A stretch of DNA of 41,682 nt from an uncultured Bacilli bacterium (GTDB lineage Bacteria; Bacillota_I; Bacilli_A; RF39; UBA660). The notes under the pieces were generated by a model that was not told the origin of the DNA, searched no databases, and saw only the letters and a program-made list of their open reading frames with translations. The DNA is taken from assembly GCA_947626015.1 (NCBI GenBank), contig CANQQK010000002.1, positions 1 to 41,682 on the forward strand, written 5' to 3'. Within the stretch, counting starts at the first letter, position 1; each line of letters opens with the position of its first letter. Shown here piece after piece: positions 13,549 through 14,533 of the stretch. Made by a program: the position numbers and the translations under genes.

Positions 13549-14325
13549 TTATTTATAACGATTACCGGAGGAAGTAATCATATTAGAGCTAAATCCACTA
13601 GAACTATTTGATCTAAAACTTAAGTAATCATGATTTCTAGTACCATTTAAGGCATCCATAACTGCTTCCCTTACGGTATCGGGAGCACTTGATCCTAAAA
13701 AGGATTTATAAGAGCCGGATTGATAAACCGAAAATTGCCCAGGGGCAGTGGCTTGTTTAACAGGGTTAGCACCACCACATGATGCCCAATTGGGTTCTTC
13801 ACAACGATTGAGAATAGTTGAGACGACCGCTAAGGCATCGTCATAGCTCTTATCCGATTCCGCTGATACGATAGCGGTTAAAATATCTAAATCATCATTG
13901 GATAATTCATATGTTGGATTATCCGTGGTAACCACAAAGCCACTTTCGGGTTTGCTTTGATATTTACTAATATCGATGGTGCTAGATTCATCTGATAACG
14001 TTTCGATTGGAGATACACTTTCAACACTATCTTTAGAATATTCCACAGGGGTTGGAGTACTACCTCCACTGCCAGTTTCCGGATTACTTGCGGTATTCGT
14101 TTTTACTTTGGGTCTTTCATACTTTTTACCTAAGATGGCCGTTGTGATATATGATGCATAAAGAGCAGCCACATCGCTAAACCAATCATCGGAAGCAATC
14201 GATTCATTCATTCGATTAACGACCGCCGTAAATAAACTGGTGAAATTAGCATCCAAATTACTCACAGCTTCATCTAGGAGCTTTACAACTTCATTAGATC
14301 GTTCACGATAATCATCGGAATCCAA
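13549..14325 (-). CDS. SleB/Hydrolase_2-type cell-wall hydrolase domain fused to family A helical N-domain (minimal ORF; homology continues upstream to 14520 across an in-frame TAA)
   Basis: The C-terminal domain (nt 13591-13905) reads LDILTAIVSAESDKSYDDALAVVSTILNRCEEPNW...APGQFSVYQSG, matching the SleB-family pattern (AE catalytic Glu, ILNR, GQFS). No signal peptide is present. A Ser/Thr/Pro linker joins it to an N-domain paralogous to 11789-12199. The track start is TTG. Confidence 0.7.
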   Translation of the reverse strand: MDSDDYRERSNEVVKLLDEAVSNLDANFTSLFTAVVNRMNESIASDDWFSDVAALYASYITTAILGKKYERPKVKTNTASNPETGSGGSTPTPVEYSKDSVESVSPIETLSDESSTIDISKYQSKPESGFVVTTDNPTYELSNDDLDILTAIVSAESDKSYDDALAVVSTILNRCEEPNWASCGGANPVKQATAPGQFSVYQSGSYKSFLGSSAPDTVREAVMDALNGTRNHDYLSFRSNSSSGFSSNMITSSGNRYK

Positions 14326-14533
14326 AGAACTCTTGATAGTTATAATACCTTCTTGTAGTTTTGAAATATATTTTTTTACATCATGCCAATGATGATTTAA
14401 TTTACTAACCCTATTCTTAGTATTATGGTAATGAATATAATAGGATTCATAACTATAATTAACAATAAATTAATCAAACTTTAGGTTATCACTTAACCAC
14501 TGACTGACATATTTCCTCATACATTACTCCCAT

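What the first reader, a model, noticed from the sequence alone, without database searches (positions are those of the whole stretch)
13549..14520. SleB-type cell-wall hydrolase domain without a signal peptide, fused to the family A N-domain: candidate T7SS-delivered peptidoglycan hydrolase
- The C-terminal ~105 aa (nt 13591-13905) carry the SleB/Hydrolase_2 pattern (IVSAESD..., ILNRCE, APGQFSVY).
- This domain normally appears in Sec-exported spore-cortex lytic enzymes.
- Here it follows a Ser/Thr/Pro linker and a helical N-domain that also exists as a stand-alone gene 1.4 kb downstream. There is no signal peptide or TM segment.
- That architecture (targeting domain, linker, enzymatic C-terminus) matches polymorphic T7SS toxins.
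- It could be an antibacterial wall-degrading effector, or a wall-remodelling enzyme serving the secretion apparatus, as the EssH hydrolase does in S. aureus.
- To my knowledge, SleB-fold T7SS cargo has not been characterised.
Basis: partly seen in the sequence, partly recalled or inferred. Interest (0 to 1): 0.8.

Follow-up and report, generated by a model that had tools for sequence, protein, structure and literature searches.

The report
Broken secretion-linked cell-wall-cutting enzyme gene
The cell-wall-cutting domain and its helical carrier domain are real and belong to an undescribed family tied to type VII secretion genes in uncultured gut bacteria, but this copy is cut short by a stop codon at codon 17 and is probably dead or crippled.

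Summary
The domain calls hold. The C-terminal ~140 aa is a divergent SleB/CwlJ-type (Hydrolase_2) domain. Evidence: Pfam 25 bits against a cut-off of 27, a family profile hitting SleB crystal structures at E=7e-8, a confident AlphaFold model whose only real PDB matches are SleB, and the catalytic Glu conserved. The N-domain is paralogous to the stand-alone gene at 11789-12217, and there is no signal peptide.

The ORF 13549-14520 is not open. A TAA at 14472-14470 (GAA in orthologues) ends it at codon 17. The same stop is in all six independent assemblies of this species. One of them has a second nonsense mutation.

A related species has a syntenic, intact 382-aa gene. A bona fide EssC lies 4.8 kb downstream on the same strand. 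Across uncultured gut Bacilli, signal-less versions of this hydrolase are flanked by WXG100 genes (32 of 61 small neighbours, against 0 of 46 for membrane-anchored or LysM versions). Four lineages have EssC next door. The N-domain also carries other C-termini.

The type VII link is therefore well supported for the family. I found no published precedent. It is not an LXG protein, it has no immunity candidate, and this copy is most likely a pseudogene. Whether the family acts as a weapon or remodels the cell's own wall is unresolved.

The parts
14470..14520 (-). Remnant 5' end of the gene. It holds the ATG at 14520 (preceded by GGGAG), 16 codons (MRKYVSQWLSDNLKFD) and the premature TAA at 14472-14470.
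   Evidence: The start aligns with the start of orthologue P0002 / L002. GAA in L002 is TAA here. The stop is identical in 6 assemblies.
14119..14469 (-). Rest of the family-A helical N-domain (codons 18 to about 134). Only the part from the TTG at 14325 onward lies in an ORF with a canonical start.
   Evidence: 37% identical to the stand-alone paralogue. Alignment with P0002-4 and P0121-3. AF2 model of the paralogue shows helices 33-65, 71-112 and 117-131.
13975..14118 (-). Ser/Thr/Pro/Gly-rich linker of about 48 aa. It is much longer (about 130-150 aa) in the intact orthologues.
13549..13974 (-). SleB/CwlJ-type (Hydrolase_2-like) domain, from DISKY to GNRYK plus the stop. The candidate catalytic Glu is in AESD.
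11789..12217 (-). Stand-alone family-A N-domain protein (142 aa, or 136 aa from the second ATG). It is a possible partner or chaperone of the fusion protein.
   Evidence: It is conserved in L002 at 75% identity.
10617..11763 (-). Three small helical proteins (108, 115 and 128 aa) with no family match. They are positional equivalents of the WXG100-like genes that flank relatives.
   Evidence: For the relatives' neighbours.
12297..13487 (-). 396-aa protein with a helical N-terminus and about 12 'AGGDAxP' peptide repeats. It lies directly downstream of the hydrolase gene and is conserved in L002. It has no export signal.
   Evidence: A promoter-like site lies at 13542-13514.
4070..8701 (-). EssC, the type VIIb secretion ATPase (1543 aa, FHA plus FtsK/SpoIIIE domains).
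   Evidence: Pfam. NCBIfam TIGR03928 scores 947 bits against a cut-off of 778.
3810..4070 (-). 86-aa ORF immediately after essC. An 83-88-aa ORF holds the same position in five other EssC loci. It may be EsaB/YukD-like, but this is unverified.
   Evidence: There is no Pfam or NCBIfam hit.

Best explanation
This is a nonsense-disrupted copy of a type VIIb-secretion-associated peptidoglycan lytic enzyme that has no Sec signal.

How the intact orthologues (382-399 aa) would work:
- A three-helix N-domain of about 135 aa (family A) serves as the export handle. It probably pairs with the free-standing paralogue and the neighbouring small helical proteins, and the EssC ATPase encoded a few genes downstream probably recognises it (inferred).
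- A flexible Ser/Thr/Pro linker follows.
- The C-terminal SleB/CwlJ-type domain cleaves glycan strands of peptidoglycan outside the membrane, using the invariant Glu. The fold and the residue are shown. The chemistry is inferred from SleB.

In this species, a GAA-to-TAA change at codon 17 ends translation after 16 residues. Any product started downstream (TTG at 14325) lacks helix 1 of the handle. The copy is therefore most likely a pseudogene, or at best an enzyme that cannot be targeted. The rest of the locus, including essC, stays intact.

Biological role of the family: I lean slightly towards a dispensable wall-loosening or autolysin-type cargo acting on the producer's own or kin wall (about 50%), over an immunity-paired antibacterial toxin (about 30%).
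For: Domain identity. Catalytic Glu.

Premature stop:
- The stop itself is seen.
- Orthologues read through with Glu at that position.
- The same TAA is in the window and in L001, L059, L060, L061 and L062, which come from different samples.
- L060 has a second nonsense mutation (TAT to TAG) between the handle and the enzyme.
- No intact allele of this species appeared among 5.8 billion clustered proteins. The best hit is the 258-aa form, and the next is only 50% identical.
- The related species L002 carries two family-A hydrolases (DPBB-like 351 aa and SleB-like 382 aa). Here the first is absent and the second is broken.

Type VII link:
- EssC passes the equivalog cut-off and the synteny is conserved.
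- The N-domain is fused to at least five different C-termini.
- 32 of 61 small neighbours of signal-less relatives match WXG100, against 0 of 46 for membrane-anchored or LysM relatives. The latter sit in a veg/spoVG/yabP/yabQ/divIC neighbourhood. Fisher p=1.5e-10.
- EssC lies within 10 kb in 4 further lineages, each with a different N-domain.

No signal peptide.

Lean towards self-wall action:
- No exported protein is encoded next to the hydrolase in the window, L002, L016, L030 or L044.
- The C-domain is 60-78% identical across different N-domain families and genera.
- The family-B version heads a positionally conserved cluster in 12 or more species.
- The EssC loci of these MAGs show no transmembrane protein other than EssC.
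Against: - Secretion has not been shown for any member, and every organism involved is uncultured.
- The N-domain matches neither LXG nor WXG100 at significant levels. The best is WXG100 at E=0.16 for the paralogue. Fold hits to EsxA, EsxB and TelA-LXG are not significant, with E above 1.
- No EssB, EsaA or EssA was found in the 41.7-kb window.
- EssC proximity alone is not statistically significant: 4 of 25 against 0 of 22, p=0.11.
- Against 'dead gene': the window and L062 differ by 10 synonymous and 1 non-synonymous change in the 258-codon ORF. That ratio resembles the intact neighbours and would be improbable under neutrality (p about 8e-6). However, divergence along the locus is patchy, which suggests recombination, so the pattern may have been imported from a lineage with an intact gene. 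L059 has gained an ATG at codon 34.
- Against a self-wall role: the handle also carries glycine-rich hydrophobic C-termini that resemble membrane toxins. Also, the hydrolase is dispensable here while essC is kept.
Confidence: 0.6

Rival explanations
1. The gene is still functional as a shortened protein. Translation restarts downstream of the stop, at the TTG at 14325 or at the new ATG in L059. It yields a 258-289-aa enzyme with half a handle, released by another route (lysis or piggy-backing on a partner) or acting inside the cell.
For: - The synonymous to non-synonymous ratio is 10:1 between the window and L062, like the intact neighbour genes.
- The stop has persisted in six samples without large deletions.
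- L059 gained an in-frame ATG.
Against: - There is no convincing ribosome-binding site before the TTG at 14325 or the L059 ATG.
- The strong Shine-Dalgarno sequence serves the ATG at 14520, which runs into the stop.
- One strain has a second nonsense mutation that separates the handle from the enzyme.
- The closely related strains show mostly non-synonymous changes.
- Patchy divergence means the 10:1 ratio may reflect recombination.
Confidence: 0.2
2. The family is a classical polymorphic antibacterial toxin, delivered by the type VII system to kill neighbours by wall degradation and neutralised at home by a cognate immunity protein.
For: - One handle carries many C-termini, including putative membrane-active ones.
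- L002 has tandem paralogues.
- The gene is dispensable in this species.
- There is a precedent of a SleB-fold type VI effector with a periplasmic immunity protein.
Against: - No exported or membrane-anchored protein is encoded beside the hydrolase in any locus examined.
- The C-domain is unusually conserved across lineages.
- The family-B version sits at a fixed chromosomal position.
- Relatives with two lytic domains resemble the wall-opening enzymes of transport machines and phage tails.
Confidence: 0.3
3. The gene is unrelated to type VII secretion. It is a CwlJ-like enzyme made without a signal peptide in the sporulating mother cell, and the helical N-domain targets it to the spore.
For: - Hydrolase_2 is the spore cortex-lytic family.
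- The window encodes a YunB sporulation protein.
- Membrane-anchored relatives lie among sporulation genes spoVG, yabP and yabQ.
- From my own knowledge, CwlJ lacks a signal peptide.
Against: - Signal-less versions specifically associate with WXG100 genes and EssC, not with sporulation genes.
- The handle is shared with non-hydrolase C-termini.
Confidence: 0.1
4. The stop codon is an assembly or sequencing artefact, or TAA is read as sense in this organism.
For: None, beyond the low coverage of some metagenome contigs (about 3x).
Against: - The identical TAA is in six assemblies from different samples and pipelines.
- TAA also terminates this gene itself.
Confidence: 0.02

Closest known systems
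SleB / CwlJ spore cortex-lytic enzymes (Pfam Hydrolase_2, PDB 4F55 and 4FET)
   Same: The catalytic-domain fold matches and the catalytic Glu is aligned. Like CwlJ, it has no signal peptide.
   Different: It has no PG-binding N-domain and no YpeB or GerQ partner context. It is fused to a helical handle and sits in an EssC / WXG100 gene neighbourhood. The subfamily is sequence-divergent and has a conserved C-terminal extension (SFRSNGS...GNRYK).
LXG polymorphic toxins of T7SSb (TelA-E, EsaD, TspA, YxiD and others)
   Same: It shares the order helical N-terminal handle, linker, variable C-terminal effector, and it has no Sec signal. Small helical proteins are encoded alongside, and EssC is nearby.
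   Different: There is no LXG domain match. The small genes follow rather than precede the effector. No immunity gene is evident. The cargo is a glycan-strand-cleaving enzyme, which the reviews consulted do not list.
EssH of Staphylococcus aureus
   Same: It is a peptidoglycan hydrolase encoded at a type VIIb locus that could open the wall for secretion.
   Different: EssH has a CHAP domain, carries a Sec signal peptide and is explicitly not a T7SS substrate. Here the domain is SleB-type and there is no signal peptide.
T6EC3, a SleB-fold type VI secretion effector (Mol Syst Biol 2024, PMC11148199)
   Same: It is a SleB-like domain with an essential Glu, used as secreted cargo of a specialised secretion system.
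   Different: It belongs to a Gram-negative type VI system, acts in the periplasm and has a cognate periplasmic immunity protein. No sequence relationship was tested.
Specialised wall hydrolases of conjugation systems and phage tails (CwlT, PrgK, TcpG, tail lysins)
   Same: Relatives combine two lytic modules: Phage_lysozyme2 or a DPBB-like module, plus the SleB-like module. This is typical of enzymes that make a local hole for a machine.
   Different: Those enzymes are membrane-anchored or part of the virion, not fused to WXG-like handles. This comparison rests on my own knowledge and was not tested.

Membership tests
Hydrolase_2 / SleB-CwlJ (PF07486) | Match to the family model at or above the curated cut-off | tested here: inconclusive
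   The target scores 25.0 bits against 27. Relatives with the same domain score 32.3 and 27.7 bits. The NCBIfam SleB equivalog scores only 18.6 bits against 236.5, so the target is not an SleB orthologue.
Hydrolase_2 / SleB-CwlJ (PF07486) | Fold of the SleB catalytic domain | tested here: met
   The AF2 model has pLDDT 90. Foldseek hits 4fet and 4f55 with probability 1.0 and TM-score 0.58-0.71, with no other real hit. The profile hits 4f55 at E=6.7e-8.
Hydrolase_2 / SleB-CwlJ (PF07486) | Catalytic glutamate | tested here: met
The Glu is invariant in 50 and in 17 sequences. It aligns with the Glu of YGES in both SleB chains. This is index 120 of the 4fet chain, which I take to be Glu151 of B. 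anthracis SleB.
Hydrolase_2 / SleB-CwlJ (PF07486) | Lytic transglycosylase activity on peptidoglycan | not testable with these tools
   Needs a zymogram or muropeptide analysis.
LXG polymorphic toxin (PF04740) | N-terminal LXG domain | tested here: not met
   No LXG hit in Pfam at E<=1 or in NCBIfam at E<=0.1, for the target, P0002 or the paralogue.
LXG polymorphic toxin (PF04740) | Same handle with different C-terminal domains | tested here: met
   Family A is fused to two Hydrolase_2 subtypes, a DPBB-like domain, a glycine-rich hydrophobic domain and an unknown domain.
LXG polymorphic toxin (PF04740) | Adjacent cognate immunity gene | tested here: not met
   The downstream genes have no export signal or transmembrane segment. 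The nearest membrane protein is five genes away. This is absence of a candidate, not proof of absence.
WXG100 (PF06013) | Family model match, with the WXG motif in the hairpin turn | tested here: not met
   The target has no hit, and the paralogue scores E=0.16. The conserved W-F-[SG] lies after helix 2, not in the turn between helices 1 and 2. Fold hits to EsxA and EsxB have E above 1.
Type VIIb secretion locus | EssC ATPase | tested here: met
   TIGR03928 scores 947 bits against a cut-off of 778. FHA and FtsK domains are present.
Type VIIb secretion locus | EsaA, EssA and EssB membrane components and an EsxA-type WXG100 gene | tested here: not met
   None was detected among the ORFs of 100 aa or more in the window. 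They could lie elsewhere in the genome. WXG100 genes do flank relatives.
Type VIIb secretion substrate | EssC-dependent export | not testable with these tools
   Needs genetics in a cultured relative or a heterologous host.
EssH-type apparatus hydrolase | CHAP domain and Sec signal peptide | tested here: not met
   There is no CHAP hit and no signal peptide.
Pseudogene | Premature stop relative to orthologues, reproducible, with further decay | tested here: met
   A second nonsense mutation is present in L060. The selection test is ambiguous.

The most novel reading that the evidence does not exclude
In a clade of uncultured low-GC gut Bacilli, the type VIIb loci seem to consist of little more than EssC, a small YukD-like ORF and WXG100-type proteins. 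In this clade the secretion system may export its own peptidoglycan-cutting enzymes (SleB-like, DPBB-like, phage-lysozyme-like) on WXG-like handles. This would be the first type VII-secreted wall hydrolase. It would be a functional counterpart of EssH or of the lytic transglycosylases of type III and IV systems, and it would explain how cargo crosses a thick wall without EsaA.
Probability: 0.25. Interest if true: 0.8.

Novelty: new variant of a known kind. Interest (0 to 1): 0.5.

Why it matters
How type VIIb substrates cross the thick Gram-positive wall is described as an open question (PMC13492133). The only linked hydrolase, EssH, is Sec-exported and specific to staphylococci. [quoted passage not shown]

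A family of signal-less SleB-type hydrolases carried on WXG-like handles inside WXG100/EssC gene clusters would give that question a concrete candidate. It would also add peptidoglycan glycan-strand cleavage to the known type VII cargo activities.

The value lies in the family. The copy in this window is broken and, by itself, is an ordinary pseudogene.

Tried and rejected
- **Sequencing error or alternative genetic code for the TAA.** Rejected: six assemblies agree, and TAA also terminates this gene.
- **Phase variation.** Rejected: the change is a point substitution outside any repeat.
- **Single-sequence search of the PDB with the C-domain.** This gave only noise.
- **PDB profile that included N-terminal columns.** It was swamped by coiled-coil hits. 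It worked only after trimming to the C-domain.
- **Word-indexed homologue search with the stand-alone N-domain.** It found only 3 proteins.
- **Exhaustive profile search intended for the N-domain alone.** It unintentionally kept the C-domain columns (388 positions), so most hits are C-domain hits. N-domain hits were picked out by their profile coordinates.
- **Phage origin.** The target has no PHROG match. Only the Phage_lysozyme2 module of a relative matches tail or endolysin families.
- **LXG, WXG100 or YukD assignments for the window's small proteins.** No significant hits.
- **Fold search of the N-domain.** It returned only non-significant helical-bundle matches.
- **Using dN/dS to decide dead versus alive.** Ambiguous, because divergence between strains is patchy.
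- **DNA tandem repeats in the 396-aa gene.** None found by TRF.
- **Two SleB structure papers.** They could not be read because they are not held.
- **Source genome among the loci returned by the scan of the GTDB species-representative collection.** Absent: the best C-domain identity was 67%.

Full report
**What is at the coordinates**

The gene lies on the minus strand.
- The mechanical ORF list gives 13549-14325 (258 aa, TTG start), not 13549-14520.
- Reading from the ATG at 14520 gives MRKYVSQWLSDNLKFD, then a TAA at 14472-14470. The frame then continues through the rest of the N-domain, a Ser/Thr/Pro-rich linker and the C-terminal domain.
- The ATG at 14520 has a good GGGAG ribosome-binding site. 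It aligns with the start of the full-length homologues P0002, P0003 and P0004 (382-399 aa, 44-50% identical over the whole length).
- Those homologues read ..N/D-E-F.. where the window reads D-*-F.
- At the DNA level the related locus L002 has GAA where the window has TAA.

**The stop codon is real and fixed**

- The protein cluster of the 258-aa product has seven members.
- I fetched their contigs and aligned the DNA. The window plus five other assemblies from different samples (L001, L059, L060, L061, L062) all carry the same TAA.
- L060 has a second nonsense mutation (TAT to TAG) just before the catalytic domain. L059 has an AAG-to-ATG change that creates an in-frame ATG at codon 34.
- No intact allele of this species turned up among 5.8 billion clustered proteins.
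- The related species L002 has two family-A hydrolase genes in tandem: a 351-aa gene with a DPBB-like C-terminus and a 382-aa gene with the SleB-like C-terminus. In the window the first is absent and the second is broken.

The selection signal is mixed.
- Against L062, the 258-codon ORF shows 10 synonymous and 1 non-synonymous change, like the intact neighbour genes.
- In the closer strains, changes are mostly non-synonymous.
- Divergence along the locus is patchy, which suggests recombination.

I therefore call the gene a probable pseudogene, with a live truncated protein as the main rival.

**The C-terminal domain**

- Pfam Hydrolase_2 scores 25.0 bits, just under the 27-bit cut-off. Relatives with the same module score up to 32.3 bits.
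- More than 140 proteins share the ~140-aa module at 55-78% identity.
- An AlphaFold2 model built on 50 of them has mean pLDDT 90. Its only meaningful PDB matches are the SleB catalytic domains 4fet and 4f55, with probability 1.0 and TM-score 0.58-0.71.
- A profile of the C-domain alone hits the same two entries at E=6.7e-8 and 3.2e-7. The invariant Glu of AESD aligns with the Glu of SleB's YGES.
- SleB's single catalytic glutamate is described as essential in the papers read.

**The N-domain**

- It is 37% identical to the stand-alone 142-aa gene at 11789-12217 (E=3e-24).
- An AlphaFold2 model of that paralogue (pLDDT 80) shows a poorly predicted first 30 residues, then helices 33-65, 71-112 and 117-131.
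- Foldseek returns EsxA, EsxB, other WXG100 proteins and TelA-LXG/Lap complexes among the top hits. All have E above 1, so the fold is compatible with a type VII handle but is not diagnostic.
- No LXG match exists, and the best WXG100 match is E=0.16.
- Hydropathy shows no signal peptide or transmembrane segment, unlike membrane-anchored relatives used as positive controls.
- A product starting at the TTG at 14325 would begin in the loop after helix 1. It would carry only half the hairpin.

**Link to type VII secretion**

1. The same-strand gene string runs as follows: hydrolase, 396-aa repeat protein, stand-alone handle, three small helical proteins, a 461-aa membrane protein, then a 1543-aa EssC. 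The EssC passes NCBI's equivalog model for Firmicute EssC (947 bits against 778). An 86-aa ORF follows it.
2. The whole arrangement is conserved in the related species L002.
3. The exhaustive profile search shows the family-A handle on other C-termini: a second Hydrolase_2 subtype, a DPBB-like module, glycine-rich hydrophobic tails and an unknown domain.
4. The C-domain occurs in 51 species-level genomes, nearly all uncultured gut Bacilli such as Candidatus Coprovivens. There it has two kinds of context.
   - Versions with a helical N-domain and no signal peptide are followed by strings of ~100-aa genes. Of 61 such small neighbours, 32 match WXG100 at E<=0.01.
   - Versions with a membrane anchor or LysM have 0 of 46 such neighbours. 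They lie among veg, spoVG, yabP, yabQ and divIC. Fisher p=1.5e-10.
5. Four signal-less lineages with different N-domains have EssC within 10 kb, in three of them immediately adjacent. That count alone is not significant (p=0.11).

**What the family does**

The export route and the glycan-cleaving chemistry are inferences from domain identity and context. Nothing has been shown experimentally.

Evidence on weapon versus tool is split.

For a toxin:
- One handle carries many cargoes.
- There are tandem paralogues.
- The gene is dispensable here.
- A SleB-fold type VI effector with an immunity protein has been published.

For a self-wall or machine-assisting role:
- No exported immunity candidate lies next to the gene in any locus examined.
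- The C-domain is unusually conserved across handles and genera.
- The family-B version sits at a fixed chromosomal position in at least 12 species.
- Relatives with two lytic modules resemble hole-making enzymes.
- The EssC loci of these genomes show no membrane protein other than EssC.

I lean slightly towards the second role.

**Comparison with the literature**

- Two T7SSb reviews (2023 and 2026) and the 2026 EssH study mention only EssH and unlinked CHAP proteins as wall hydrolases at these loci. They state that EssH is Sec-exported and not a substrate, and they call wall passage an open question.
- The 2012 catalogue of polymorphic toxin domains does not mention SleB in the part that is held.
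- Searches combining SleB with WXG100, and T7SS with lytic transglycosylase, found nothing relevant.
- The combination therefore looks undescribed. Its parts are known, so I rate it a new variant of a known kind.

**Verdict**

The domains are right, but the ORF is wrong.
It holds for the family, but this copy is disrupted.
- Interest is moderate. The window's gene is an ordinary pseudogene. It does, however, point to a coherent and apparently unreported family of type VII-associated wall hydrolases in uncultured gut Bacilli.

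Noticed in passing
window 18695-21094 (-) and 11437-11763 (-): The last ~100 aa of a 799-aa Gly/Ser/Thr-rich protein are 70% identical to the free-standing 108-aa helical protein in the EssC gene string. This puts a handle-like domain at the C-terminus, reminiscent of the 'reverse' type VII substrates TslA and TslM.
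   Followed up: partly
window 12297-13487 (-): A 396-aa protein has a helical N-terminus and about 12 degenerate ~20-aa 'AGGDAxP' peptide repeats. It is conserved as a 402-aa protein in L002. It has no family match, no export signal and no DNA-level tandem repeat. A strong sigma-70-like site (11 of 12 positions) lies just upstream at 13542-13514.
   Followed up: partly
window 9179-10564 (-): A 461-aa protein next to essC has a hydrophobic segment at aa 76-95 that ends in LSGC, and a HEIGH zincin-like motif. It is 62% identical in L002 and has no significant family match.
   Followed up: no
window 11437-11763 and 11008-11355 (-): The 108-aa and 115-aa helical proteins both carry a YxxxD motif (YSPAD and YDIPD) within a conserved LQDNFY stretch. 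This resembles the YxxxD/E export motif of type VII substrates. The comparison comes from my own knowledge and was not tested.
   Followed up: no
L030, L033, L041, L044 (EssC loci of other uncultured Bacilli): The EssC loci contain WXG100-like genes, an 83-88-aa ORF right after essC and WXG-handle fusion proteins. They contain no predicted transmembrane protein other than EssC, so no EsaA, EssB or EssA equivalent is nearby.
   Followed up: partly
L001 about 11660-11735 (window about 4370-4410): In one other assembly of this species, essC carries a ~38-nt gap and is called as 1452 + 82 aa. Coverage is only about 3x, so this may be an assembly error rather than decay of the system.
   Followed up: no
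L002 1043-2098: The related species has an extra family-A handle gene with a DPBB-like C-terminus (351 aa) between the DUF5684 gene and the SleB-type gene. In the window those two genes are only 13 nt apart, so this gene is cleanly absent.
   Followed up: partly
L008-L024 (family-B loci): A conserved cluster runs hydrolase, four ~100-aa WXG100-like genes, a ~343-aa protein (with a WXG-like N-terminus) and a ~517-aa protein. It lies downstream of htrA-like and miaB-like genes in at least 12 species. Three species have a second hydrolase of about 500 aa in tandem.
   Followed up: partly
window 15521-17056 (-): The threonyl-tRNA synthetase is short (511 aa). Pfam finds only the class II core and the anticodon-binding domain, with no TGS or editing-domain hit.
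   Followed up: no
L034-L048: The ~205-aa membrane-anchored versions of the same C-domain sit in a veg / spoVG / yabP / yabQ / divIC neighbourhood. This suggests a housekeeping or sporulation-linked ancestor of the secreted versions.
   Followed up: partly
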